Shown piece by piece: positions 2,885 through 51,075 of a DNA stretch of 64,000 nt. The stretch comes from Isurus oxyrinchus. Lineage: Eukaryota. Both the position numbers and the translations under genes were made by a program. Within the stretch, counting starts at the first letter, position 1. Each line of letters starts with the position of its first letter. The stretch is taken from positions 930,001 through 994,000 of the forward strand of contig JANJGN010000152.1 of the NCBI GenBank assembly GCA_026770705.1. Direction: 5' to 3'. A model generated the notes under the pieces. It was not told where the DNA came from and did not search any database. It saw only the letters and a list, made by a program, of their open reading frames with translations.

Positions 2885-3910
2885 AAATTGACAGACACAA
2901 ACATGCGTACACACACACACAGGCACAGACACACAGACACAAACACACACAGGTACAAGCAGACACATGTACACCCACACATGCGCACCCACACAAACAC
3001 AGGCAGAAACACATAGACAAATACACACGCACAAACACACACATTCATAAATACACACACACAATCACACACATACAGAAATATACACACAGACACACTC
3101 GCTCACACACATATACACTATCACACACACACAAACAGATAAAACCAGACAAGCAGACTCATACAAGGATACAAAGCACAAATGTAACTTTTCGCATATG
3201 CATTATCACACGTTCACAATGACAGAAATACAGACAGAAAGACACACACTATCGTACACATTAAAACAATGCATGGACATACATTAACACATGCACACAC
3301 ATGAGCAGACGACACCCAGATACAAAAACACAGAGGAACCGACTAACACATTCACAGACACCCATGTGGACACAAACATGAACATACTCATACACACTAG
3401 AACACAAAAAACACACGTTGGTACATATGAAAACATAAACACGCATTGATACATAGTTCTAAATATCAATCAACACACAAATGCACACATTAAAAACTAT
3501 ATCTCTCTCTTGCTGTGTCTTACACACACACACACACACACACACATACACACATACACACACACAGACCCTGTGACACAGACTTTAATATGCTGACACA
3601 CAGTGGAACACAAAAAGAAACATTAACGCTCATATTAGCAGGCAGGAACGCTGAAACACACATTAACACAGACAGTAATAAGTCAACATAGACATCATTA
3701 CACAAACACGCACAATAACACACTCATACATACACATTGGCAGAAAAACCAAATATACGTACAGACGCAGACTCAAAAATACACAAATCAGCACTCATTG
3801 GCACATGAACACACACATTAACACACATTAACACCGATGGACACACAAACAAACAGTAATGCAAAGCGCGAGATACTGATGCACACACATACAAAAGCTA
3901 AAGCACAACA
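2885..3910. repeat. CA-rich low-complexity tract including pure (CA)n
   Basis: About 1 kb of degenerate CA repeats, with a pure run at 3522-3545. Confidence 0.9.
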
Positions 3911-4452
3911 CAGAGGCCAGGCTATTGAATAAAGTATAATTCAAATGTACTTTTTTAATGGGCATATCCTCCGGCAATTGTCTCTATTACATAATAACCC
4001 AATAAACACACTGAAACAATGCTCTTACTGAGAAACTGATTTAAATTAATGATGCACCAAACATTCCCATATCACAAATAGACAATCAAGATGGGAACTC
4101 ACATCCGAGCTTTTAAAAAGCAACGTTCACAGTTTCCAAATAAGTAGCTCAGTGAATCTTTCCCGATACCCATCATAATATTCTCCAATAATAGATCATA
4201 CGAAATTGTTCGAAAATAACCTGATACTGGAGAAAATTTGCAATTTTTTCCGACATGGACTGTACAAAGATTGTAAAGGGAGAACAGCTGTGGAGATAGT
4301 TACAGAGATGGGTTACTGAGTGTCCCTTAATAGTAGATATACATTGAACATTGAATACATTAATAACTTATGAAAGAGTAAAGGAATTTTTTTAAATGAT
4401 ACCCTAGATTAATAAACAACCTAATTATATTTCCTCGGCTATATCCCCGTAG

Positions 4453-4580
4453 ATTCCACAGACCGCATCTGGATTGAAGACTCTGAGGATGATAACGGCA
4501 ACATCTGGACAACCGCTTCCACATTCATCATCCTATTCTTCCTGAGCATTTTCTACAGCACTGCCGTCACTCTGGCAAAG
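4453..4580 (+). CDS. IGHM: IgM membrane exon TM1
   Basis: Acceptor cccgtAG at 4451-4452. Reads (D)STDRIWIEDSEDDNGNIWTTASTFIILFFLSIFYSTAVTLAK, an acidic spacer plus the conserved antigen-receptor TM motif. Donor GTGAG at 4581; phase matches the CH4 internal donor. Confidence 0.93.
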
Positions 4581-4718
4581 GTGAGAAGATTCAATCCACT
4601 CACACTTCAAACTGACAGAAGCGGTTTGAAAAATCTCTCAATGTTTCATTGATTAGAACTCTAACATAAATGTCCCAGATTATAAACATCTGCTTCATTA
4701 TTTCATCCTCTTTTACAG

Positions 4719-4727
4719 ATCAAGTGA
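4719..4727 (+). CDS. IGHM: IgM membrane exon TM2 (I-K-stop)
   Basis: ttttacAG|ATC AAG TGA, giving cytoplasmic tail K-I-K. Confidence 0.85.
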   Translation: MK

Positions 4728-5141
4728 CCGATTGAATTTTGGACACCGTAGATTTTCCTCAGCTCTTTATTGAGACCTCTGTATTCCGAATTTAAAATAT
4801 ATCCTCTCGGTGACTGTAAAAATGAAATACCTTCAGTTTATGTTTCCGAATTGTAACTGAGACAATTATGAACGGTATTTCCGTTTCTCTGTTTCAAATG
4901 TGCGAGATAATTATGATTCATTGCAACAGCAGCTTATAATTTCCCAGTAGTTTGAATTCCCTGTGTAAATAAGTAACTTTTCTCATTCCTCATTCACAAT
5001 TAATCCCTGCCCTTGATATTGAGCTCCTGTTTTCTCTTTCTGGTGTCTGTTACAGTTGTACACAAAGTTGGCAGCTCAGAGCGAATGTGCTCTGTTCTCA
5101 ATGTGACTCTCAGTCATTATATTCACTTCAGTTAACTTTAA

Positions 5142-5183
5142 AATAAACTTTTCTGTAAAATGTTCCCTGAAATTGTTAATAAA
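5142..5183 (+). terminator. Membrane-form poly(A) signals
   Basis: AATAAA at 5142-5147 and 5178-5183 downstream of TM2. Confidence 0.65.
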
Positions 5184-5309
5184 TCATGAATGTGAAACGA
5201 ACTGACTTTGCTGAACTCCTTTCTCTCAGACCCATCGACATCGCTCCATTTTCCCTATTACACTGTTTTCCCCCCTTTCCCAGGCAGGCATTTTTAACCA
5301 GACTTGTCT

Positions 5310-5420
5310 GGGATCTGAAACAAAAACAGAAAATGTTGGAAAAACTCAGCAGGTCTCACAGCATCTGTGGAGACAAAAAACTGAGTTTACGTTTCGAGTC
5401 CTCATGACTTCTTCAGAGCC
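5310..5420. mobile_element. Penelope-like terminal repeat fragment
   Basis: ggaaaaactcagcaggtct..cagcatctgtggaga..cgtttcgagtc motif shared with 7460, 8765, 21410, 45180 and 46385. Confidence 0.65.
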
Positions 5421-5739
5421 CGAGATCCTTCAGTGAAAGAGTCACCGCGCCACCCAGCGACCCATCGGTGTTAATACACCTTTACCTCTGCCTTTTTATG
5501 GCAAATTCCAGAGGCAAAATGATTGCACAGCGAGGAGAATCTCGGTGATTTCACTCATACTCAGGCCTGTCACAGTCACATGTCAGGTAATTGTAAACAG
5601 CAGGGGCTGTTCATCAGAGGCCCATACAGGACAGTATATGGAGGATGAAAGTTTCCTTTACACTGTCCCATTAATCACTCCCAGCGTCGGTGCAGCAGGG
5701 TTTAGATAGAGAGAAAAAGTTTTGTTTTTCCCTCTTTAT

Positions 5740-6060
5740 CCTTTCATGAGATACGGGTGTGGCTGGCAAGGCTGCTCTGAACAGTCCGCCTTCCGAGGCC
5801 ATTTCAGAGGGCAGTTAACTGTCAACCGCATTGCCGTGGACCTGGAATCACATGTCGGCCAGGCCAGATGAAGATGACAGATTTCCTCGAAAGGACTTGA
5901 GTGCAGCAGATGGGTTTTTACGACAATCGGTGATAGTTGTCATGGTCACCATCACTGAGGCCAGTTTTCAATTCCAGATTTTATTAATTGAACTCACATT
6001 CCAGCAGCTGCCATGTTGGGATTTGAACCCCAGCCCCGAGAGCATTCGCCTGGACTCTCT
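5740..6060 (-). mobile_element. tRNA-headed SINE (short form of tRNA-headed LINE family)
   Basis: Reverse complement has B-box ggttcaaatccc, body ...ggaaatctgtcatc...ttaactgccctctgaaatggcc and a LINE-type tail. Homologous to 22015-22335 and 20078-20700. Confidence 0.75.
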
Positions 6061-6386
6061 CTACCTTGTCCAATTAAACACTCACAAGGCAGAACGTCAC
6101 AGGCCGCCTTCTCAAGTCTATTAGGGATGGGCAATAAATGCTGGCCCAGACAGCCACACCCGCATTGCATAAACGAATAACAAAAAAATACATATATACT
6201 ACAGACGGTACAGTTGATACAAACCATTGGATGATTCCTAGAGACTAGGGCCGATCTGACACAGAAACATTATCGAAGAGTAATTCTGCAAAATTATTAC
6301 TACAGTTTGGGGCTTATCAGGGACACCAGGGAGCACAAATCGTGGAAATTCCCAGGCCCTGCGGCCTGCCCGACGCAACAAACAAA

Positions 6387-6825
6387 TGAACTCACTAAGC
6401 ATCGCCCCAGGGATCCTCTCTTCCTGTTCCATTCCATCTGACACCATTCTCCTGGACTCACTGAGCATCACCCCAGGGATCCTCTCTCCCTGCTCCATTC
6501 CCTCTGATACCATCCTCCTGAACTCACTGAACATCGCCCCAGGGATCCTCTCTCCCGGCTTCATTCTCTCTGATACCATCCTCCTGAACATCGCCCCAGG
6601 GCTCCTCTCTCCCGGCTCCATTCCCTCTGATACCATCCTCCTGAACTCACCGAACATCACCCCAGGGATCCTCTCTCCCGGCTCCATTCCCTCTGATACC
6701 ATCCTCCTGAACATCGCCCCAGGGCTCCTCTCTCCCGGCTCCATTCCCTCTGATACCATCCTCCTGAACTCGCTGAACTTCGCCCCAGGGATCCTCCCTT
6801 CCTGCTCCATTCCCTCTGATACCAG
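6387..6825. repeat. Tandem repeat with 66/57 bp units
   Basis: atc(g/a)ccccaggg(a/c)tcctctc starts at 6401, 6467, 6533, 6590, 6656, 6713 and 6779. Confidence 0.92.
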
Positions 6826-6948
6826 CTCTGATGGGAAGCTTCAACTCTCACTCCACTGATTCTGGCAGAGGCTGTTATGCATTTTCAGTTTTAAACCAAT
6901 AAAAAGAACTCTCTGTTTAAGCAGTGTGACATGAGCAAAGAACCCTCA

Positions 6949-7020
6949 TTCCCAAACCAGAAATGTAATCCGGGCCGCAGCGTTGAAAGGGCTGAATTCT
7001 AACCACATGGTCACCAGGGA
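6949..7020 (-). pseudogene. tRNA-Glu(TTC) pseudogene
   Basis: RC tccctggtgaccatgtggttagaattcagccc-TTC-aacgctgcggcccggattacatttctggtttgggaa aligns over 72 nt to vertebrate tRNA-Glu. T-loop/B-box is degraded. Confidence 0.8.
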
Positions 7021-7454
7021 CATTATCCTTGTGTTTTGATAAATGATACTTTTGCCTTTTATTTTCATTTCAGACTGCTTTATCCAGAGACAAAATGGCC
7101 TATTCAGGTAACTAAACAACCATTGCCATTGGCTGGAACATGAAATTGACAGTGTGGTGAAATAGTGCCAAAAGCGGTGAATTGCAAAATTCAATTTTCA
7201 AAACCCACCAATCTAATCACTGCAGCTCCTGTGCAACTTGCAAGGCAACACACGACAGACATTCATCACTGTAAGTAATTGACCGACATAAAAGTTTTCC
7301 ACTTTCATGTTACATCTTCTAACTCCTAACCTCCACCTCAGTCATTTCCAGTTCTATTTAATACCCACGTGGAACTTTAACTCTGCTCCTCGTTCCACAG
7401 ATTTTGGCCGACTTGCTATGCATTTTATATTATAATAAAGCCAGGAATTTGTGC

Positions 7455-8350
7455 TCTAATAAAAACAGGGGTGCTGAAGTTCCCAGCAGGTCTGGCAGCA
7501 TCTGTAGAGACAGAAACATGTTGAATGTTTTCAGGCCATGTGGCTCTTCTTCAGAACTGAAGGGAGATAGAAATGTGATGGATTTTATGCTACTGACGGG
7601 GCGGGGTGGGGGTGGGGGGGGGCGGTTTAGAAAATGGAGCAAAAATGTTCAGGGATAGGTTGGAGATCTGGAGAGATTAAATGACAAAGATATCATGGAA
7701 CACAAGTCAAAGGCAAAGGGAATGATATTATTAATTATGAAAGCAGGTGTTAATATTTAGACAAAGGTCAGCACTGACTGGAAGCAAAATAGCAGAATGT
7801 GTTAATAGCAGAAAAAGGGTCGGCGCTGTCTGAAAGCAAAACATGAGAACAAGATGCAAACTGGCACTTGGGGGTTGGGAGGCTGCAGGGAAATTAAAAT
7901 GGAGGATGGAGTTCATGGTGTGAATCTGTTGACCTCAATGTTGAGTCCAGAAGGCTGTAGAGTGCCTATTGAGAAGATGAGGTGCTGTTCCTCCAGTTTG
8001 CATTGAGCTTCACTGGAACATTGTAGAAAGCTGAGGACAGAAATGTGAGTGTGAGCCAGATGGTGATGGGCAGGTCTGGGTTATGCTTGTGGACTGAGTG
8101 AAAGTGTTCCACAAAGCGGACAGTCAGTCTGTGTTTACTCTCCCCAGTGTAGAGGAGACCACCTTGAGGGCAGTGAATGCAGCAGCCTGAATTGCATGAA
8201 GTGCAAATAAATCTCTGCTTCATCTGGAAGGAGAGTTTGGGATCTTGGAGGGAGGCGGGAGGAGGTAAAGGGGCAGGTGTTACACCTCCTGCAATTGCAT
8301 GGGAAGGTGCCGTGGGAAGGGGATGAGATGTTGGGGGTGATAGTGTTTTT
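7455..8350 (-). mobile_element. Penelope-like element 3' portion with GIY-YIG endonuclease remnant
   Basis: ORF 7966-8469 contains FICTSCN..CIHCPQGGLLYTGESKHRLTVRFVEH, a PLE GIY-YIG pattern. The PLE terminal repeat is at 7455-7560. Confidence 0.8.
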
Positions 8351-8391
8351 TGGATCAGAAATTGGTTTCTGGTTGTGATATTTTGCACAAC

Positions 8392-8456
8392 AGCGAGACC
8401 GGGAATCAAACCTGGGCGATGAAAGCACTGAATCCTAACCACCAGGTCACCAGGGT
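8392..8456 (-). pseudogene. tRNA-Glu(TTC) pseudogene with internal deletion
   Basis: RC accctggtgacctggtggttaggattcagtgc-tTTCa-tcgcccaggtttgattcccggtc; variable-arm region deleted. Confidence 0.75.
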
Positions 8457-8759
8457 GCTTGTGAATCATCCTGTTTAGAGAATTCAGCTGTCAACCAGAA
8501 CATTGGTGGTTTGACACCATCTAGGGCCAGTAGATTCTCTCTATTCCTGCTTCTACTTATATTACAGACACAGTTCTGCTTTTAGTCTTTTGGTTACAAG
8601 GAAATGTTGCCCTAACTTTTCCAGCCCTGCTGTTATCCAGTAAGTTCCCAGGCAAATAGTTATATGAATTTTTATTTCAAAGAAAATTAGATAAATTAGA
8701 GCAAACATGTGCATAACATCCAACTCGTTGGGTTCAAAGCAACAAATATAAATTGATAC

Positions 8760-8850
8760 AGAAACAAAAATAGCTGGAAAAACTCAGCGGGTCTGACAGC
8801 ATCTGCGGAGAGGAACACAGTTGACGTTTCGAGTCCGGATGACTCTTTGA
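8760..8850. mobile_element. Penelope-like terminal repeat fragment
   Basis: Same motif as 46385-46480. Confidence 0.7.
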
Positions 8851-9026
8851 ATAGACTCTCAAATAGAAATTGATTCTGTGATTGCACATATAGAACTGGA
8901 ACAGACCATCGCACCGAGTGAATCCATTGTCTGTTTACATGTTGCTCAGTGAAAATCTCAATCATCCTTGACTTTGTGGCATTCGGGTACTGAATCGGTA
9001 AGCAGTCTATACTCAAAAGGCATGTG

Positions 9027-9830
9027 AACATACGAATTAGGAGCAGGATTAGGCCACTCGGCCCTTCAAGCCTGTTCAGCCATTTAATAAGATCATGGCT
9101 GATCTGTTTCTAACTTCCGACCAATCCCCATGAATCTTTCAGCCTCTTGTTAAATATACCTATCTCTGCCTTAAAAAGATTCAAAGACTCTGCTTCCACT
9201 TACGACACTCTGAGAGAAAAAGAATTCTCTCATCTCTGTCTTAAATGAGCGAACCCCAATTTTTAAACAGTGACACCTATTTCCAGATTCTCCCACAAGA
9301 GGAAAGATCCTCTTCACACACACCCTGTCAAAACCCCTCAGAATCTGAAAGATTTCGATCAAGTCACCTCTTAGCTTTCTAAATTCCAGCAGATACAGGC
9401 CTAGCCTGTCCACCCTTTCCTCATGAGACAGCCCGCCTATCCTTGATATTAGTCCAGTAAGCCTTCCCTGAATGACTTCTAATGCATTTACATCTTTCCT
9501 TAAATAAGGAGGCCAACACTCTCCACAGTACTCCAGATATGGTCATACCGGTGTCCTGTACAACTGAACTATAACCTCCTTACTTCAATTCCCCTCACAG
9601 TGAATGATAACGTTCAATCAGCTTTCCTAATTACTTGTTGTGCCTAAATAGTTCCACTTATTTATCAAATTTTTTCAGACCTCCTGAATAGCTATGCACA
9701 TGTGGAAATTATTCTCTCATGTTCCATCCCTGTTACCCTGACATGTCTAAATCTCTTCACAGCCGATATACTCCTCTGTATCCTCCTCACAGCTTACATT
9801 TGCATCGTTTTCATCAACTAATTTTTGTCT
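9027..9830 (-). mobile_element. CR1 LINE 3' fragment
   Basis: ORF 9171-9413 DRLGLYLLEFRKLRGDLIEIFQIL...FFSQ is the CR1 ORF2 C-terminus. Confidence 0.85.
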
Positions 9831-10564
9831 ACATGCACCAGCGAGGGTCGAACTCAGCACCCGATTTGGTAAATCCACTGTTTTAACCACTGGGTTGCCC
9901 CAACGCAGTAAAGGTCCTCTTGCAACTTTTAAAACTACTATTATTCTCTGTACCATTTACCATGAAGACACATAACTAAAGTGAATAAAGTTTCCGATGG
10001 TAAAAATGCGTTTATCCCTCTCAGGGAACTAAACCACATTGACACACGCAGAGGAACACACACACACACACACACACCGATAGTGACAGCTGTCTAAGGA
10101 AAGAAAAATGTCCAGAAAGCAAGGATGTCACCAGATTGGCTCCGTTTTTGTTCCATTTCCAACTGCAAATTTGGTGAATGCCTGCGGATGAACAGAAATG
10201 AAAAATACTGGGAAGCGTTTGAAATATTTTTTTAATAGATAATTAATTCTGTAACTCATTCTTAAAGCAGGAACAGTGAGAAATGTAAACTATTAAATGT
10301 AGTTTGCAGGTTCAATATGTAGGATTTGAACTTGTATCAGGGAACATAAAATGGTTTCAAGCCCATTACATAAGCAACTCAGCTCCATCCATTGCTGCCA
10401 TCTACCTTTTAATGCTTTGTACATAAAGCGACAGAGTGGTTACAGCTGAGAATGAAGACATGTAGCCCCATCTATTCCTGGCTGCCCTGCAATTTCTGCT
10501 GTCTCTCCTCGATCTTTCCTCCAGAATGGAGCACTGTACACTGAACGTGCACAGGAACACACAT

Positions 10565-10945
10565 GTGATTGAGGTGCATAAAATTATATGGGGTATAGGT
10601 AGGGTAGACAGGAAGGAGCTTTTCCCCTTAGTGGAGGGATCAATAACCAGGGGGCGTAGATTTAAGACAAGGGGCAAAAGGTTTAGAGGGGATGCAAGGA
10701 AGAATTTTTTCACCCAGAGGGTGGTGGGAATCTGGAACACACTGCCTGAAAGAGTGGTAGAGCCAGAAACCCTCAAAACGTTAAAGAAGTATTTGTATGT
10801 GCACTTGCGATGCCATGGTATACAAGGCTATGGGCCTAGTGCTGGAAAATGGGATTAGAATATTTAGGCACTTGTTTGACGGGCACAGACTCGATGGGCC
10901 GAAGGGCCTTTTTCTGTGCTATAGGCCTCTATGACTCTATAACTG
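10565..10945 (+). mobile_element. CR1 LINE 3' fragment
   Basis: IEVHKII..GRVDRKELFPL..TRG..FFTQRVVGIWNTLP, followed by a ctctatgactctat tail. Confidence 0.9.
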
Positions 10946-10990
10946 AAAGGTTTGGCAAAATTGATTGAAAATATGAACTGTCTGAAACTC

Positions 10991-11072
10991 TGACAATGGA
11001 GAGATTTGAACCCACGCTTCCACAAAAAGTAGAACCTAACTCCAGCATCTTGGACCACTCGGCCACGCAACC
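10991..11072 (-). pseudogene. tRNA-Leu(TAG) pseudogene
   Basis: RC ggttgcgtggccgagtggtccaagatgctggagt-TAG-gttctac...gcgtgggttcaaatctctccattgtca: 82 nt with a long variable arm and several stem mismatches. Confidence 0.8.
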
Positions 11073-12852
11073 GCTAGTGTCAAAAATTGTCCTTGCCATG
11101 ACTGAAATTTTCAATCACTCTCCACATTGTAACATTCAGTAACTGAACGGTCTCCACTGAAAAAACATACAGAAAGAAACATTCTCCTCTTGCATCTTTC
11201 CAACCTGCTTTTTCTTTCTGAACCTTTTTAATGAAAAGCTACACAACTAATGTGAGTGAAGTTTGCGATGGTAAAAATGGGTCCATCCCCTCATGGAACC
11301 GAACCGCTTTGACACATTCCTGATCCGAACCACTCGTTGTGCAACATAGAAGCCCCTTTAAAACTGTAACTATTATTTTCAGTTTCCTCTCCTCTCCGAC
11401 CAAAATGAATCACTTCACACTTCCAGACATTAAATTTCAGCTGCCACTTGTCCGTCCAAATGGATTTGTTGAAGGGCCCAAAAGGAGAACCGACTCAAAC
11501 TGGGAATGAAAGAGTGAGAATGAAAGAAGAGACGTGATGGGTTTTGTAGATCCCGGGGGAAAGAGATTCCAGGATCAGTTCATTGTGACAGTTCACACAG
11601 CAACAAGGAAACAACATTCCCTGATGAGAGCCAAACCAGGGCGGCAGGAGCGGGAGTGCCAAATAACAGCCTGTTTAGTTAAAACATAGAAGACTTCTTC
11701 AGCCAATAACTGCATCGAGTGTGTTCAACATGGACATGAAGTGAACAGTGAGGGGAAAATAGTGCCACAAGCTGCGGATGTACAACGTTCAATTTCCAAA
11801 CCCACCAACAGAATCAATGTGGCTCCTCTGAAACTTTCAAGGCAAATATTGATCCTTTATCAGATGCCGTTCCCAGAACTATACACAGTCCTCCAGGTGT
11901 GACCTAACCAGGGCTTTGTATAGCTGCAGCAAACCTTTCCCTCTTTTCTATAACAGTCTCTGTAACAGGTTGTACAGCAAGAGGAATTAGATTGTATAAG
12001 GCGACTGAGAAAAACGAGGACATGCTTGATCTGAATCAATCTCTTTGGAAAGTTTGGTATGAAATCAGCTGCATAAATACATTTATGGTTCAAAAACTAT
12101 ATCGGAATCTAAAGTCCAACTCCTGATGTCATTGGGTCAGGGAAATTTTGTTGATGATCACACAGTGCGCATGGGCACTGCAGAAACTCCTGCAACTCTT
12201 TCAATATTGTTCTTTAATTTCATAAGCTCCATGAAATCTCTGTTTAACCTCCTTTATTCTAAAGAGAACAATCGCGGCCTCTATAATCTCTCCACAAAGC
12301 TGAATTTCCTCATCTATGGACATGATGCAAGGTGAAAAATTGCAATGAGATTTTAGAAAATATTGCCAGCTAGCAGTTGGGAAGATGCAAAAGGAACCAA
12401 AGCAAAAAACCCAGTCTCCAGCTTTGCAAAGCTTTCGAAATTCTTTGGGAACCGGGATCAGAGGAGAACGAAGGGCAAACTGTCCGACTGACCGTTCAAG
12501 GTACCGTTCCCCTCTTTAAGGCACTGGAACATTGACTCTGATGTTATCATTGAAATTAACTGATCTGAGACATGGAAAGGATTCTCCTCACTGCACATCA
12601 GCAATTCAAGCCGAATATTGGTTTCGGGACAATCAGAGCACTTGGTGACAGACAAGGCACCAAAAGGATCGAAGGGAGACTGTAGGAGAGCTGGTTCCAG
12701 GTGACATGGATGTGTCTGCAGTGGGTGGGATCAGACTGTTTCCATATATCCAAATCAATGCCTCACCCTTTATTTTGGAAAGGTAAAACTCGTAGAGAAC
12801 AATGATCATTCTGATAGCGGCATCTGAACCTTTAAGTACATATCTTGCGACT

Positions 12853-12930
12853 TTTTCTGTGGTGCAATTGGTCAGCGTGTTCGGCTGTTAACCAGAAGGT
12901 TGGTGATTCGAGCGAGACCACCCGCCGACG
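12853..12930 (+). pseudogene. tRNA-Asn(GTT) pseudogene
   Basis: tctgtggtgcaattggtcagcgtgttcggct-GTT-aaccagaaggttggtgattcgagc; acceptor and T stems disrupted. Confidence 0.8.
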
Positions 12931-22014: not shown

Positions 22015-22335
22015 TTATTCACTCCTGGGATGTGGGTGTTGGTGGCGGGGCCAGCAATTACTGGCCATTCCTAAGTGTCCTTGTTCAGAGGGCAGTTAAG
22101 AATCATCACATTGCTGTAGGCTCTGGGGTCACAGATAGCCCAGACCAGGTAAGGATTTTTATAACAATCGACAATGGTTTCATGGTCATCTTTAGACTTT
22201 TAATTCCAGATTTTTATTGAATTCAAATTTCACCATCTGCTGTGGTGGGGATTGAACCCACATCCCCAGAGCATTACCCTGGGTCTCTTGAATACGAGTA
22301 CATCACAATGCCACTATGTCACCACAATGGCCACG
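22015..22335 (-). mobile_element. tRNA-headed SINE (short form)
   Basis: Head and body as at 20078, joined directly to the LINE tail ...gctggccc..cccacatccca...aataaaaaa. Confidence 0.8.
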
Positions 22336-28711: not shown

Positions 28712-29595
28712 AGAATCTCACAGTGCAGAAGAGGCCCTTCAGTCCATTGAGCCTGCACCAACACGTGAGAAACAACTGACCTACCTACCTAATCCCATTT
28801 ACCAGCACATGGCCCATAGCTTTGAATGTTATGACATGCCAAGTGCTCATCCAGGTACTTTTTAAAGGATGTGAGGCAACCCACCTCCACCACCCTCCCA
28901 GGCAGCGCATTGCAGACCGTCACCACCCTCGCATCCTCACATCCCCCCCAAACCTCCTGCCCCTCACCTTGAACTTATATTCCCTTGTGACTGACCCTTC
29001 AACTAAGGGGAACAGCTGCTCCCTATCTACCCTGTCCACACCCCTCATAACCTTGACACCTCGATCAGATCGCCCCTCAGTCTTCCATGCTCCAACGAAA
29101 ACAACCCAAGTCTATCCAACCTCGCTTCCCAATTTAAATGTTCCATCCCAGGCAACATCCTGGTGAATCTCCTCTGCACCACCTCCAGTGCAATCACATC
29201 CTTCCTAAAATGTGGCGACCAGAACTGCACACAGTACTCCAGCTGTGGCCTCACCAAGGTTCTATACAACTCCAACATGACCTCCCTACTTTTGTAATCT
29301 ATGCCTCGATTGATAAAGGGATTTTATATATGTCCCATTTGCCTTTTTCACCGCCCCACTAACATGCCCCTCCGCCTTCAGAGATCTTTGGAAACACACA
29401 CCAATGTCCCTTTGTTCCTCAGAACTTCCTAGTGTCATGCCATTCATTGAATACTTCCTTGTCAAATTACTCCTTCCAAAGTGAATCACCTCACACTTTT
29501 CAGGATTAAATTCCATCTGCCACTTATCTGCCCATTTGACCATCCTGTCTATATCTTCCTGTAGCCCAAGACACTTGACCTCACTGTTAACCCAA
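28712..29595 (-). mobile_element. Young CR1 3' fragment inserted in ZNF intron
   Basis: MVKWADKWQMEFNPEKC and LEYCVQFWSPH; nearly identical to 34676-35647; absent from the paralogous intron near 23625. Confidence 0.92.
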
Positions 29596-32410: not shown

Positions 32411-33922
32411 AGGACTCCTATCTACAAACATTCACTCCCTCCACCACTGACACACAGCAGCAACAGTGTGTACCATCTAAGAGATGAACTGCAGGAATTC
32501 ACCAAGGCTCCTTACACAGCAACTTCCAAACCCATGACCACTACCATCTAGATGGACAAGGTCAGCAGACACATGGGAACACCACCACTTGAAAGTTCCC
32601 CTCCACGTCACTCACCATCCTGACTTGGAAATATATTGCCATTCTGTTAGACTCACATCTCCCAAGACTGAAGTTTACTTTTACAAAATGGAAGGATTTG
32701 GCATGATCTGGACGTGTGGACGCTAACCTGGGATTTTTTTTTAAAAAAGGTCATAAATTCACCTTGGGACTGTCAACAAGCTGGCCTCTTCCAAGAAATC
32801 ACCTGACCTATACGGTTCTTGAGAAGGAGTTGTTTGATTTGATAGAACTATTCAGTCATGAGGGGTCCAGACAGAGTAGATAGGGAGAAATTGTTCCTAC
32901 TCGTGAAAGGATCCAGAACAAGAGGGCACAGATTCAAAGTAATTAGTAAAAGAAGCAAAAGTGATATGAGCAGAAATGTATTTTTATGCAGCGAGTGGTT
33001 AGGGTCTGGAATGCACTGCCTGAGGGTGTGGTGAAGGCAGGTTCAACTGAAGCATTCAAAAGGGAATCAGACTGTTACCTGAGATCAAAGAATGTGCAGG
33101 GTTAGGGGAAGAAGGCAGGGGGATGGAACTCGGTGAGTTGCTCCTGTACACTCTTTAGAATTGTACCCTTTATTTCTATATTGTCTCTCCGTGCTCCTCG
33201 TACCAAAATGAATCACTTCACATTTCTCTGCATTGAACTTCATCTGTCCACCCATTCCACCAGAGAAATGGCCACATCGCAGCTTAGGAGCCAGGAGGCA
33301 GAAAGGAAGAAGTATTTAGATGAGCACTTGAAACACCACAGCATCCAAGTGCTGGAAAATGGGATTAGAATAGATCAGGGTTTGATGGTCGGCACAGACA
33401 CGATGGGCTGAAAGACCTGTTTCTGTGCTGTATAACTAACTCTATCTTTGAAATGAGTGACTACCAGACAGTCCAAGAGAACTAGGCAGGTATTGCGCTC
33501 ATCGATCAATTTTGTTTTGTTCACTGGTGAGAACATTGGTTCCTCAGAGGTGTGCAGTCAGAGCCAAGTTTGTGGCACCACGAGCAGCTCTGCTGTACAG
33601 GAGGAGAGGAAGAGAGGAAGAGCTATAATAATAGATTTGTTATTTTGGGGAACAGACAGGTACTTCTGTGGCTATATACATGACTCCAGGATGGTATGTT
33701 GCCTCTCTGGTGCCAGGGTCAAGGATGTCATGGAGCGGCTGCAGGACACTCCATGGGGGAGGGTGATCAGCCAGAGATCGTGGTCCACATTGGTACCAAT
33801 GACTTAGGTAGGAAAGGGGATGAGGTTCTGCAAGCAGACTTTAGGCATCTAGGGAGGGCACTGAAAAGCAGGGCCACTAAAGCAGTAATCTCAGGATTAT
33901 TCCCAGTCCCACAAGCAAATGT

Positions 33923-34013
33923 GGCTCTGTGGTGCAATGGACAGCATGTTGGCCTTCTCATCAGTGATAGGTCAGGTATTCAAAGGTTGTGGGTTCAAAT
34001 CCCACCAGAGTCA
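33923..34013 (+). tRNA. Intron-containing tRNA-Arg(TCT) copy (retroposed, probably non-functional)
   Basis: GGCTCTGTGGTGCAATGGACAGCATGTTGGCCT-TCT-C, 18-nt intron atcagtgataggtcaggt (33960-33977), ATTCAAAGGTTGTGGGTTCAAATCCCACCAGAGTCA. Confidence 0.85.
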
Positions 34014-34530
34014 CATTTTAAGGATGTGATTGCACTAGAGAGAGAGCAGAGGAGATTTACCAGGATGTTGCCCGGGCTGGAGAGTTTTAGTTGTGAGGAG
34101 AGATTGGATAGACTAGGGTTATTTTCCCTGGAGCAGAGGAGATTGAGGGGGACATGATTGACGTGTATAAAATTATGAAGGGCATAGATAAGGTAGCCAG
34201 GAAGGAACTTTGCCCCTTGGCGGTGGGATCAATAACCAGGGGGCATAGATTTAAGGTAAGGGGCAGGAGGTTTAGAGGGGATGTGAGGAAGAATTTTTTC
34301 ATCCAGAGGGTGGTGGGAACCTGGAACTCACTGCCTGAAAGGGTGGTAGGGGCAGAAAGCCTCATAACATTTAAGAAGTATTTGGATGTGCACTTGTGAT
34401 GCCATGGTATACAAGGCTATGGGCCTAGTGCTGGAAAATGGGATTAGAATAATTAGGTACTCCTTTGACCTGCACAGACTCGATGGGCCAAAGGGCCTTT
34501 TTCTGTGCTGTAGACCTCTATGACACTATG
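34014..34530 (+). mobile_element. CR1 3' fragment fused to tRNA-Arg
   Basis: [19 protein letters not shown]..., ending in a ctctatgacactatg tail. Confidence 0.92.
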
Positions 34531-34675
34531 ACAAGCGAGTATAGAAATAGGAGAACTGAGCGAATAAACAAATGGCTGGAAAGTTGGTGTTGGAGGGAGG
34601 GCCTCAGATTTCTGAAGCATTGGGACCAGTTCTGCGGAACATGGGACCTATACAAGGTCTACACCTGAACAGGGA

Positions 34676-35647
34676 TCTGTGCTCGGTCCCCTATTATTTG
34701 TCATTTATATAAACGGCAGAGATGACTATGTGGGGGGTAGGATTAGTAAGTTTGCATATGATACAAAGATTGGCCAGGTAGTTAACAGTGAGGTTGAGTG
34801 TCTTGGGGTACAGGAAGATATAGACGGGATGGTCAAATGGGCAGATAAGTGGCAGATGGAATTTAACCCTGAAAAGTCTGAGGTGATACACTTTGGAAGG
34901 AGTAATTTGACAGGGAAGTATTCACTGAATGGCATGACACTAGGAAGTTCTGAGGAACAAAGGGACCTTGGCATTTGTGTCCATAGATCTCTGAAGGCAC
35001 AGGGGCATGTTAGTGGGGCAGTGAAAAAGGCATATGGGACACTTGCCTTTATCAATCAAGGCATAGATTACAAAAGTAGGGAGGTCATGTTGGAGTTGTA
35101 TAGAACCTTGGTGAGGTCACAGTTGGAGTACTGTGTGCAGTTCTGGTCGCCACATTATAAGAAGGATGTGATTGCACTGGAGGGAGTGCAGAGGAGATTC
35201 ACCAGGATGTTGCCTGGGATGAAACATTTATGTTATGAAGAGAGGTTGAATAGACTTGGGTTGTTTTCGCTGGAGCAGAGAACACTGAGGGGCAACCTGA
35301 TCAAGGTGTACAAGATTATGAGGGGCATGGACAAGGTGGATAGGGAGTAGCTGTTCCCCTTAGTTGAAGGGTCAGTCACAAGGGGGCATAAGTTCAAACT
35401 AAGGGACAGGAGGTTTAGGGGGGATGTGAGGAAAAACTTTTTTACCCAGAGGGTGGTGACGGTCTGGAATGCACTGCCTGGGAGGGTGGTGGAGACTTTA
35501 AAAAGTACCTGGATGAGCACTTGGCATGTCATAACATTCAAGGCTATGGGCCAAGTGCTGGTAAATGGGATCAGGTAGGTAGGTCAGGTGTTTCTCATGT
35601 GTTAGTGCAGACTTGATGGGCTGAAGGGCCTCTTCTGCACTGTGATT
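34676..35647 (+). mobile_element. Young CR1 3' fragment nested in older CR1 ORF1
   Basis: 223-aa RT C-terminal ORF; caggga duplicated at 34670-34675 and 35648-35653. Confidence 0.92.
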
Positions 35648-38600
35648 CAGGGAAAAATATCCTCACAAGGAGGTTTGCTAATGCTGTTGGAGTGCAGGGG
35701 ATGGGGCAGACGGGTTTGGTTTAAACTAGATTGGCAGGGGAATGGGAACCTGAGGGAAAATTCAGAGCAGGGAACAGGAGATGGAGAATTAATGAGTGAC
35801 TCTGAAAGACAGAAGCAGCACAGGTTAAAAAATGTACAGCACAGGAACTTGGCAGTGTTAAAATGTGTATTTGTAAATGCAAGGAACATAGTAAATAAAG
35901 CCGATGAGCTGAGGGCACAGGTAGGCACATGGCAGCATGATATCATTGGTATAATGGAAATCTGGCTTAAGGAAGGGCAAAAATGGCAGCTCAACACACC
36001 TGTATATAGAGTTTTCAAGCAGGATAGGAGGGGGATAAAGAAGTTGGGGGTGCAGCATTATCAATTAAAGGATCAATTACAGCTGTGAGGAGGGATGCTA
36101 TACTAAATGAAGCATCAAATGAGGCCATGTGGGTTGACCTCAGAAATAAAAAAGGGCAGCCACACTGCGAGGAGTGTACTATCAACCTCCAAATTGTGGA
36201 AGGGAGTTAGAAGAGCAAATATGTGGACACATTTCTGAGTGCAAAAACAACAGGGCAGTAATAGTTGGGGACTTCAACTACCCTAATATCAATTGGGATA
36301 GGAACACAGTGTGAAGGATACAGAGGACGCATAATTCTTGAACTGCATTCAAGAGAACCTTTCTGGCCAGCGCGTAACAAGCCCAGTGAGACTGGGTGCA
36401 ATTCTAGAATTAGTCTTAAGAAATGAAGCTGGGCAAGTGGATGAAGTAGCAGTGGGAACCACTTTGGAGATAGTGACCATAATCTGGTTAGATTTAGCAT
36501 CATTACAGAAAAGGACAAAGATAGAACAGGAGTAAATGTTCTAAATTAGGGGATGACAAATTTTCCAAAGCTGAGAGGTGAGCTGGCAAGAGTGGACTGG
36601 ATACGGCTATTAGAAGGAAAAACTGTCAAATCAGTAGGAGGCATTCAAAGGCGAGATTCTACGGCACAGTGTAGACGTGACCTTTCAAAGAAAAAGGGTG
36701 GTACTGCCAAATCTAGATCTCCCTGGTTGTTCAGAAGAATACAGGCCAAGATAAAACACAAAAAGAAAGCTTATGATAGTCACAAAAGACTTACTGAAGG
36801 AAGCCTAGAGGAGTATAGAAAGTACGGGGGTGAAGTAAAAATGGAAATTAGGAAAGTAAAGAGAGGATTTAAAGAAATATTGGCAGGTAAAATCAAAGAA
36901 AATCCTAATATGTTTTACCAGTACATTAAGAGCAAGAGAATAACAAAGGAAAATAACTAAGGGCCAATCAGAGATGTACAAGGTAGCTTGTGGTACAGAT
37001 GGTGTGGGCAGGGTTCTCAACAAGTACTTTGTCTTTGTCTTCATTAAGGAGAGGGATAATACAGACATTCCAGTTAAAGAGGAGTGTGAATTATTAGATA
37101 CAATAAGCATAGTGAGAGAGGAAGTACTGGAGGGGCCGGCAGCCTTGAAGACGGATATATCACCAGAGCCAGATGGATTGTATCCCAGGCTGTTGAATGA
37201 AGTCAGGGAGGAAATAGCAGATGTTCTGAAGATCATTTTCCAATCCTCACTAGATATAGGCGAGGTCCCAGAGAATTGGAGGTCTGTGAACATTGTACCA
37301 CTATTTAAAAAGGGTGCAAGGGATAGGCCAGAAAATTATAGGCCAGTCAGTCTGACTTCTGTGGTGGGCAAATTATTAGAAACAATTCTGACAGGATAAC
37401 TTGTCTCTTAGAAAGACACAGATTGATCAGGGATAGTCAGCATGGTTTTGTTAGGGGGATATCATGTCTTACTAACTTAACAGAGTTTTTTGAGGAAGTG
37501 ACAAGGATTGATGAGAATAGTGCAGTGGATGTTGTCTACATGGATTTCAGTAAGACATTTGACAAGATCCCACATGGCCGACTAGTCAGGAAAGTGAGAT
37601 CTCATGGGATGCGGGGGAAGGTGGCAGGTTGGATCCAAAGTTGGTTCAGTGACAGGAAACAAAGCGTAATTGTCAATGGCTGGTTTTGTGAAGGGAAAAT
37701 GGTTTCCTGTGGTGTTCCACAGGGCTCAGTGTTGGGGCCCTAGCTGTTTGTTGTGTATATTAATGATTCAGACTGAAATGTGGGAGGCATGATTGGGAAA
37801 TTCACATATGATATAAAAAATGGCTATGTAGTTGATAGTGAAGAGGATAGCTGTTGACTCCAGAATGATATCAATGGTTTGGTCGAGTGGGCGGAGAAGT
37901 GGCAAATGGAATTCAATCCTGAAGAGCTGGAGGTAATGCATTTGGAGTGGGCAAATAAAGCAAGCGAATTCTCAATAAATGGGAAGTTATTGAGAGGGGT
38001 TGAGGAACTGAGAGACCATGGAGTGCATGTACATAGGTCCTTGAAGTTGGCAGGACAGATGGACATGGTGGTAAAGAGAGAATATGGAATGCTTTCCTTT
38101 AGTGGGTGAGTTATTGAACACCAAAACAGGCTGTAATAATAAAACTGTATCAAACGTTGGTTAGGCCACAGCTGGAATTTTGTGTACAGTTCTGGTCACA
38201 TTATAGTAAGGACACAAATGCTCTGGAGAGAGTACAGAGGAGATTTACAAGAATGTTTCCAGGGCTTGAAAATTGCAGCTATGAGAGAGATTGGATAGGC
38301 TAAGGTTGTCTTCCTTTGAACAGAGGAGACTAAGGGGTGACCTAGTTGAGGTGTACAAAATTATGAGGGGCCAAGATAGGGTAGACAGGAAAGACTTGTT
38401 TCCCCTAGATGAGGGGTCAATTACCAGGGGGCACAGATTTCAGGTGGTAGAAAGGTTAGAGGGGGACATAAGGCAAATCGTTTTCACCCAGAGGGTGGTG
38501 GGCATCTGGAATTCACTGCCTAAATTGGTGGTTGAGGCTGAAAAGCTCAAGTCATTTATAAGGTACATGGATCTGCATCTGAAGCACTGTAACCTGCAAC

Positions 38601-50566: not shown

Positions 50567-50624
50567 CTTGTCCATGAGAGTAACTGAAGGTACAAGAACT
50601 GAAATAATCTAGAGTAATGATAAA

Positions 50625-51075
50625 GTGTTAGTTGTGGTTCAGTGTTTGTATTCTTATCTCTCAGTTGGGAGGCTGTGGGTTCAAATCCACATCCAGAAAC
50701 ATGTGTATAAAATCCAGGTTGATATTTTGATGCAGTACTGAGGGAGCACGGCACTGCCAGAGCCCCGTCTTCCAGATGAGACCTTCAACTATGGTCCCAC
50801 CTGTCCTCTCAGTTGGTGTAAAATTTCCCAGGATGTTATTCCAAAGAGCAGGGGATTTCTCCCTGCTGTACTGCTTCATTTTTATCCTCAGCAAACATAA
50901 CTGAACAGATTATCTGGTCACAATCACATTTCTATTTGTGGGATCTTGCTGTGCACAATTTGGTGACAGCATTTCGTACATTACAATAGTGACTACACTT
51001 CAAAAGAACTTCATTGGCGGTAAAGCACTTAGGGATGTCCTGAAGTTATGAAAGGTGCTACATAAATACAAGTCT
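50625..51075 (+). mobile_element. Deu-domain-like tRNA SINE with L2-type tail
   Basis: B box gggttcaaatcc; central gatgagacc..aagagcagggg..ctccc motif recalled from DeuSINEs; tail gtaaagcactt...gtgctacataaatacaag. Confidence 0.6.

What the first reader, a model, noticed from the sequence alone, without database searches (positions are those of the whole stretch)
33911..34542. Retroposed chimera: unspliced pre-tRNA-Arg(TCT) fused to a CR1 3' end
Seen in sequence: a full tRNA-Arg(TCT) retaining its 18-nt intron and lacking CCA is joined directly to a ~517 nt CR1 3' fragment. The unit interrupts an older CR1 ORF1 (SGLFPVPQA ... SEYRNRRTERINKWL resumes after it) and is bracketed by acaagc (33911 and 34531; 9/12 match when extended), a likely target-site duplication. 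The junction cacatttt is both CR1 sequence (compare RC near 29200) and a plausible oligo-U pre-tRNA trailer. Established: U6/L1 chimeras form by template switching or RNA ligation, and tRNA-head plus LINE-tail is the SINE architecture. Inference: CR1 RT captured a nuclear pre-tRNA, giving a snapshot of SINE birth. The TTTT after the head would stop Pol III, so this copy is probably a dead end.
Basis: partly seen in the sequence, partly recalled or inferred. Interest (0 to 1): 0.75.

Follow-up and report, generated by a model that had tools for sequence, protein, structure and literature searches.

The report
Unspliced tRNA fused to CR1 end
A decayed copy of a transfer RNA that still carries its intron sits joined to the tail of a CR1 jumping gene inside an earlier CR1 copy; it was likely made when the element's reverse transcriptase jumped onto an unspliced tRNA precursor, giving a rare, probably dead-end version of the fusion thought to found SINE families.

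Summary
The structure is real. A full, sense, intron-bearing tRNA-Arg(TCT) copy (33923-34013; Rfam 50.1 bits; 9-11 differences from four comparator genes, many CpG-type) is joined through CATTTT to the last 513 nt of a CR1, and the 610-nt unit interrupts a CR1 esterase ORF1 that resumes in register. In reads from two animals (probably close relatives) the tRNA part is 440-830 times rarer than the tail (roughly 5-26 loci, real genes included), and uninterrupted hosts are seen, so this is not an established SINE. The junction is ambiguous: oligo-U trailer (about 65%) or microhomology. Five T4-T6 runs, not one, stand in the way of Pol III. Best reading: one CR1 insertion with a template switch to an unspliced pre-tRNA. 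Small-RNA/LINE chimeras are known (U6/L1, U6/L2, 21 human tRNA/L1 loci; a tRNA-CR1 chimera is proposed as the PittSINE founder), but none of those 21 keeps both exons and an intron. No genome was available to find the source gene. A variant of a known kind.

The parts
33630..33921 (+). Host CR1 ORF1 (esterase/SGNH type), left half, decayed; start approximate
   Evidence: 58% identity over 53 aa to P0001 residues 186-238; weak Pfam Lipase_GDSL_2, E 0.0011, below its cut-off; P0001 carries PF13472; translation
33916..33921 (+). Left copy of the duplicated target in host register (CAAATG); inferred
   Evidence: empty-site joints and register check; 4 of 6 identical to 34532-34537; rough likelihood 3.5-29 times that of the acaagc readings
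33922..33922 (+). One unassigned T (last leader base, untemplated base, or part of a longer duplication)
   Evidence: sequence
33923..33959 (+). tRNA-Arg(TCT) exon 1, with A box (33930-33941) and anticodon TCT (33956-33958); position 37 reads C, not A
33960..33977 (+). tRNA intron, 18 nt (17 if a C was inserted before it)
   Evidence: comparator introns 17-19 nt
33978..34013 (+). tRNA exon 2 with B box (about 33993-34003); ends at N73, no CCA
34014..34019 (+). Junction CATTTT: pre-tRNA trailer with Pol III oligo-U end (favoured), or altered CR1 sequence at a microhomology
   Evidence: loose ends before 34020; comparator trailers
34020..34532 (+). 5'-truncated CR1: end of ORF2, 3' UTR with terminal hairpin (about 34472-34508) and tail repeat (34518-34532); T-runs at 34085, 34122, 34294 (T6), 34498 (T5)
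   Evidence: 88% to the copy at 10566-10943; ORF2 piece 70-93% to 18 proteins; hairpin (z -1.8, weak); loose ends behind 34524/34532
34532..34537 (+). Right copy of the duplicated target (CAAGCG); its first base is shared with the tail repeat
34533..34668 (+). Host CR1 ORF1, right half (S-E-Y-R-N-R...)
   Evidence: 50% over 32 aa to P0001 residues 241-272

Best explanation
An intron-containing tRNA-Arg(TCT) copy is joined in sense to a 5'-truncated CR1 inside an earlier CR1 ORF1, most likely because in a single insertion the CR1 reverse transcriptase copied about 513 nt of its own RNA and then switched template to an unspliced pre-tRNA. Steps: (1) the endonuclease nicks the host at the S-E codons and priming uses the tail repeat, which shares a base or two with the target (nesting shown; mechanism from established TPRT biology); (2) RT copies the CR1 3' end (shown by sequence); (3) RT jumps to the 3' end of a nuclear pre-tRNA, most likely its CA-UUUU trailer (inferred, about 65%), otherwise by microhomology at the tRNA 3' end (about 35%); (4) RT copies exon 2, intron and exon 1 to G+1 or one base beyond, so the template had likely lost its leader but not its intron (inferred); (5) the break is sealed leaving about 6 duplicated bases (inferred). 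The copy then decayed (all 3-4 exon CpGs changed; about 5% non-CpG divergence judged from the tail) and did not spread, since Pol III would have to pass five T4-T6 runs to reach the tail that CR1 RT recognises (inferred).
For: Both ends of the tRNA part coincide with RNA ends, G+1 and a T4 two bases after N73 (in the comparators L002, L003 and L005 a T4 or longer run begins 4-6 nt after N73, while L001 has none in the 16 nt shown). No host letters lie between tRNA and CR1, no CR1 lies upstream of the tRNA and no trailer follows the CR1 tail. The host resumes in register with nothing lost. Depth over the two inner tRNA bins is 3.7-7.1 against 3112-11200 over the tail in two raw-read runs; contigs of two more runs show the same dip. 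Ages agree roughly: tail 10.3% non-CpG pairwise to its nearest window copy (39 of 378), tRNA exons 6 non-CpG differences of 73 to L001 and L003, some of them probably source-gene variants. Template switching of several LINE clades onto Pol III RNAs is documented (PMC4476161 section 10) and was proposed for a tRNA-CR1 chimera (PMC5729268 passages).
Against: The in-register duplication is only 4 of 6 identical, and the competing 12-nt reading (9 of 12) is not excluded. The source gene was not found, so the trailer is unproven; CATT and GTC-like matches to CR1 just upstream of the junction may not be chance, and the window copy at 38195 has lost the same 3 nt that the microhomology reading needs. 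No listed read or contig spans the tRNA-CR1 junction (one search shows 15 of 300 joints and 16 of about 78900 pieces), so neither this locus in organisms A/B nor independent support for the assembly was seen. The read tool drops human-like reads, which lowers tRNA depth by an unknown amount. The runs hold only 0.39-0.63 of the sampled words, so they may be relatives rather than the same species.
Confidence: 0.63

Rival explanations
1. Daughter of a small family: a tRNA-CR1 chimera arose once elsewhere, was transcribed (leaky Pol III or read-through from upstream) and left a handful of copies, this being one; an aborted SINE.
For: Depth allows about 5-26 loci resembling the tRNA part for assumed genome sizes of 2.5-7 Gb, and human-like reads are filtered; Pol III terminators leak (PMC3141230 passages); the A and B boxes are nearly intact.
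Against: That depth must also hold the real intron-bearing tRNA-Arg genes and their pseudogenes; five T-runs including T6 and T5 precede the tail repeat; one copy only in the 64-kb window.
Confidence: 0.14
2. RNA ligation first: an RtcB-type ligase joined the pre-tRNA 3' end to a broken CR1 RNA and the chimeric RNA was then retrotransposed, as shown for U6/L1.
For: The junction reads T4 then a 5'-truncated LINE with no overlap, the U6/L1 signature; RtcB is the tRNA-splicing ligase (PMC6789731 passages).
Against: Ligation needs a 2',3'-cyclic phosphate; on a pre-tRNA that end arises at the 5' splice site, not at the trailer (recalled). In the human table the three sense chimeras of intron-bearing tRNA types stop at positions 35-38 (PMC13174262 supplement 3), as ligation would predict (my inference); this one does not.
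Confidence: 0.1
3. Two events or DNA capture: the CR1 piece inserted alone and a tRNA retrocopy landed at its exact 5' edge, or a stretch of tRNA gene DNA was patched in while the 5' junction was repaired.
For: The window holds two other weak tRNA-like relics, so free tRNA copies occur here; the TSD is imperfect; an intron is what gene DNA would carry.
Against: No separate duplication around either part; the tRNA piece starts at +1 and stops at the terminator, which random DNA breaks would rarely give.
Confidence: 0.1
4. A working tRNA gene or an assembly artefact.
For: The cloverleaf still scores 50.1 bits; no listed read spans the junction.
Against: Position 37, an anticodon-stem base and all exon CpGs are changed; ARAGORN cannot call the anticodon or miscalls it; the host ORF resumes in frame on both sides, which a misjoin would not arrange.
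Confidence: 0.03

Closest known systems
U6/LINE chimeric retrocopies (U6/L1; U6/L2, U6/RTE; one unconfirmed U6/CR1 in turkey) - PMC4476161 (passages and section 10), PMC6789731 (passages)
   Same: Full Pol III RNA in sense, T4 at the joint, 5'-truncated LINE with intact 3' end, short TSD (1-9 bp in platypus U6/L2).
   Different: The head is an unspliced pre-tRNA with its own internal promoter; its 3' end is not expected to carry the cyclic phosphate that lets U6 be ligated; CR1 clade, where that paper could not confirm a case.
Human tRNA/LINE-1 chimeras, 21 loci - bioRxiv 10.1101/2025.02.02.635956 (passages, section 21) = PMC13174262 (supplement 3, tRNA sheet, all 21 rows)
   Same: tRNA joined to a LINE 3' piece in one insertion; one row is tRNA-Arg-AGA, the same tRNA type.
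   Different: 16 of 21 are antisense and most are halves. Of the 5 sense rows three are 5' halves (Tyr 1-37, Tyr 1-35, Arg-AGA 1-38) and two near-full tRNA-Glu; none lists both exons of an intron-bearing tRNA.
TguSINE1 and PittSINE of passerines - PMC5729268 (passages)
   Same: tRNA head directly on a CR1 tail; a TSD-flanked tRNA-CR1 chimera made by template switching is their proposed founder.
   Different: Those are amplified families with short tails; this is single or very low copy, with a 513-nt tail, an intron and terminators.
HE1 V-SINE / HER1 LINE pair of sharks and rays - PMC3747384 (table passage)
   Same: tRNA head and CR1-type tail, probably in the same animal group (group recalled from the look of the repeats, not tested).
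   Different: No central V domain: only 6 nt lie between tRNA and CR1 ORF2; not amplified.
Tailless and pre-tRNA retropseudogenes (Schmitz et al. 2004; paper not held; seen only as cited in PMC4476161 and PMC3747384)
   Same: Nuclear pre-tRNA used as a template by a LINE reverse transcriptase.
   Different: Those are primed on the tRNA itself, truncated and without a LINE tail.

Membership tests
Small-RNA/LINE chimeric retrocopy (U6/L1 type) | Full small RNA at the 5' end, in sense, joined directly to a 5'-truncated LINE with intact 3' end | tested here: met
Small-RNA/LINE chimeric retrocopy (U6/L1 type) | Both parts interrupt the target at one point, with no target sequence between them | tested here: met
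   empty host forms, P0001 alignments, register check
Small-RNA/LINE chimeric retrocopy (U6/L1 type) | One clear TSD around the whole unit | tested here: inconclusive
   6-7 nt of host duplicated in register but 4 of 6 identical; alternative 9 of 12 needs a 4-nt deletion
Small-RNA/LINE chimeric retrocopy (U6/L1 type) | Oligo-U end of the Pol III transcript at the joint | tested here: inconclusive
   CATTTT needs no change as trailer, at least two as CR1; source gene not available
Small-RNA/LINE chimeric retrocopy (U6/L1 type) | Both parts inserted on the same branch (orthologous empty site) | not testable with these tools
   no genome held
tRNA-derived SINE (TguSINE1/PittSINE, HE1) | tRNA head with A and B boxes and a LINE-derived 3' tail | tested here: met
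tRNA-derived SINE (TguSINE1/PittSINE, HE1) | Many dispersed copies sharing the head-tail junction | tested here: not met
   tRNA bins 437-833 times below the least-covered tail bin in 2 of 2 raw-read runs; limits: human-like reads filtered, runs may be relatives
tRNA-derived SINE (TguSINE1/PittSINE, HE1) | No Pol III terminator between head and tail | tested here: not met
   five runs of T4-T6; transcription itself not tested
V-SINE (HE1) | Conserved central domain between head and tail | tested here: not met
   CR1 ORF2 begins 6 nt after N73
Functional tRNA-Arg(TCT) gene | Conserved body, A37 and intact anticodon stem | tested here: not met
   9-11 of 73 exon positions differ from four comparators, including 31 and 37
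Tailless retropseudogene | 3'-truncated tRNA without LINE tail | tested here: not met
   full tRNA followed by 513 nt of CR1

The most novel reading that the evidence does not exclude
CR1 reverse transcriptase recurrently jumps onto the oligo-U end of unspliced, nuclear pre-tRNAs, so CR1-rich genomes hold an unrecognised class of full-length, sense pre-tRNA/CR1 chimeras, the tRNA counterpart of U6/L1. Those captured at the trailer inherit their own terminator and die; only those captured at a processed end can found SINEs, which makes the rate and filter of SINE birth countable.
Probability: 0.3. Interest if true: 0.6.

Novelty: new variant of a known kind. Interest (0 to 1): 0.38.

Why it matters
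The template-switch model for the birth of tRNA-head/LINE-tail SINEs is usually inferred from finished families; a single unamplified fusion is the predicted intermediate. The retained intron dates the capture to before tRNA splicing, which places CR1 reverse transcription beside nascent Pol III RNA, and gives a clean case for the CR1 clade, where the U6 survey could not confirm one. As one decayed locus it has no likely function; its value is as a lead for a genome-wide count.

Tried and rejected
Whole-genome BLAST, the decisive test, was not possible: no genome is held. The acaagc TSD was tested against empty host forms and set aside as the less likely register, not excluded (the likelihood uses assumed rates). 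An established SINE family was rejected on depth. A 7-nt match between a CCA-bearing tRNA end and CR1 (GTCGCCA) looked attractive, but the closest ORF2 relative (P0002, 93%) reads W-N-P there, so the tail's own subfamily may lack it. The metagenome scan gave 5 tRNA-Arg loci, none with this intron, so no source trailer. Folding the tRNA alone was uninformative (z -1.5). Pfam found nothing for the tail or the right host half. ARAGORN at lowered thresholds gave mostly noise. Earlier findings of this scan: nothing by sequence or words; the 8 partial hits do not concern this structure. Literature searches for a described unspliced-tRNA/CR1 chimera (some searches were for mechanism) listed none; the library lacks most subscription papers and Repbase/Dfam entries were not searched. 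PMC4494074 (passages) and PMC13343379 (passages) gave background only.

Full report
Observation. The window holds one tRNA at Rfam's gathering score, 33923-34013 on + (50.1 bits). A pattern scan of metagenome contigs returned five intron-bearing vertebrate-type tRNA genes; four are complete, and ARAGORN with introns allowed names three of them Arg(tct). The window's 73 exon positions differ from these four at 9, 11, 10 and 10 places; against L001 all 3 and against L003 all 4 exon CpGs show a CpG-type change, and positions 31 and 37 are altered. The intron is 18 nt (17 if a C was inserted), within the 17-19 nt of the comparators. So this is a decayed, unspliced, CCA-less tRNA-Arg(TCT) copy, not a working gene.

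The tail. From 34020 the sequence is CR1 ORF2 (18 relatives at 70-93%) and 3' UTR, 88% identical over 378 nt to a copy at 10566-10943, ending in two CTATGAC units at 34532; contigs of the family stop matching at 34524 and 34532. Its length is 513 nt. That the animal is a shark or ray is my recollection of what these repeats look like and was not tested; the run table codes organism names.

The host. The halves on either side align to a single uninterrupted esterase-type ORF1 protein, to residue 238 on the left and from 241 on the right. Reads and contigs that skip the whole insert exist in all four runs laid. Of the 7 listed empty forms with their in-between letters (12 of 138 such rows were shown), 5 fit the host register with no indel, 1 is 1 nt short and 1 is 19 nt short. 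In that register about 6-7 bases occur on both sides: CAAATG at 33916-21 and CAAGCG at 34532-37, 4 of 6 identical, one difference of CpG type. A rough likelihood with assumed rates favours the in-register reading 3.5 to 29 times over four parameter sets. Either way the tRNA and the CR1 piece lie inside one interruption.

Copy number. No genome is held, so I laid four runs of the 24 listed, two of raw reads and two of contigs, at 80% likeness. In the raw runs depth was 3.7-7.1 over the two inner tRNA bins, 3112-11200 over the tail and 167 or more over the host; the least-covered tail bin is 437-833 times the tRNA bins. For assumed genome sizes of 2.5-7 Gb that is 5-26 loci like the tRNA part, true genes included. 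Against this: the tool drops human-like reads and warns that a dip alone is no finding, the runs hold only 0.39-0.63 of the sampled words and may be relatives, and no listed piece spans the tRNA-CR1 joint. A family of hundreds or thousands is very unlikely; a family of a few is not excluded.

The joint. After N73 come CATTTT and then AAGGATG. About 5000 reads per raw run leave the alignment before 34020 with CR1 sequence ending CACATTATAGG; 0 of 17 informative ORF2 relatives read H-F-K-D (one of the 18 had no upstream match and was left out). As a pre-tRNA trailer the six bases need no change; in three of the four complete comparators a T4 or longer run begins 4-6 nt after N73. As CR1 they need a substitution and a 3-nt loss. 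But the likeness to CR1 at that very place is suspicious, the copy at 29214 has the T and the copy at 38195 has lost 3 nt nearby, so a microhomology-guided switch keeps about 35%. Only the source gene can settle this.

Mechanism. Both ends of the tRNA piece are RNA ends, which argues for an RNA template over captured DNA. A template with a trimmed leader, an intron and a trailer is an expected nuclear intermediate (order of processing recalled, not read). Template switching onto Pol III RNAs is reported for L1, L2 and RTE, with one unconfirmed CR1 case (PMC4476161, section 10). RtcB ligation, shown for U6/L1, requires a cyclic phosphate (PMC6789731, passages), which on a pre-tRNA would lie at the splice site. 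In the human tRNA/L1 table 16 of 21 are antisense, and three of the five sense rows are Tyr, Tyr and Arg-AGA pieces ending at 35-38 (PMC13174262 supplement 3), the pattern I would expect from ligation; the present locus is joined at its far 3' end instead. I therefore put a one-off template switch at 0.63, a few-copy family at 0.14, ligation at 0.10 and separate events or DNA capture at 0.10.

Dead end. The A and B boxes are nearly intact. Human Pol III reads through T4 and even T5 to some degree (PMC3141230, passages), so the first T4 is not an absolute stop; but T4, T4, T6 and T5 follow before the tail repeat, the last two (and a T4 elsewhere) also present in the sister copy. A full-length Pol III transcript would be rare, which fits the lack of amplification.

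Comparison and novelty. It works like a U6/LINE chimera and has the layout proposed for the founder of PittSINE (PMC5729268, passages). It fails two defining SINE tests (copies, terminators). Searches listed no described intron-retaining tRNA/CR1 chimera; subscription papers, Repbase and Dfam were out of reach, and Schmitz et al. 2004 on pre-tRNA retropseudogenes was seen only as cited. Verdict: real, a new variant of a known kind, modest interest as a single decayed locus, higher if a genome-wide screen shows a class.

Noticed in passing
window 34669-35680 (+): The host ORF1 does not continue into its own ORF2: at CAGGG (about 34670) it jumps to the RT region of a CR1 91% identical to the copy at 29591-28885 (7.6% non-CpG; junction). 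Either an internal deletion at a microhomology or a separate 5'-truncated insertion of a younger family.
   Followed up: partly
window 12858-12924 (+): tRNA-like relic, Rfam 19.7 bits (below gathering), cut off in the T arm; it resembles tRNA-Asn(GTT) (name recalled); possibly a tailless retropseudogene.
   Followed up: partly
window 10991-11072 (-): Decayed tRNA-like sequence, Rfam 15.9 bits, resembling tRNA-Leu (name recalled), about 50 nt past the 3' end of the sister CR1 copy at 10566-10943, on the opposite strand.
   Followed up: partly
window 22236-22330 (-), 6007-6091 (-), 50600-50700 (+): B-box-bearing heads followed by non-tRNA sequence; the first two look related to each other and like tRNA-derived SINE copies.
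   Followed up: no
PMC13174262 supplement 3, tRNA sheet, rows 12, 14, 16: Three of the five sense human tRNA/L1 chimeras are 5' exons of intron-bearing tRNA types (Tyr, Tyr, Arg-AGA) ending at 35-38, which would fit ligation of spliced-off 5' exons to L1 RNA by RtcB; I did not see this stated in the passages read.
   Followed up: no
window 34044-34149: Many reads of the CR1 family go back 87 nt here, pointing to a subfamily or satellite with an 87-bp tandem duplication of the ORF2 end.
   Followed up: no
L003 285-628: The comparator tRNA-Arg(TCT) gene lies 177 nt from a tRNA-Thr(TGT) gene on the same strand.
   Followed up: no
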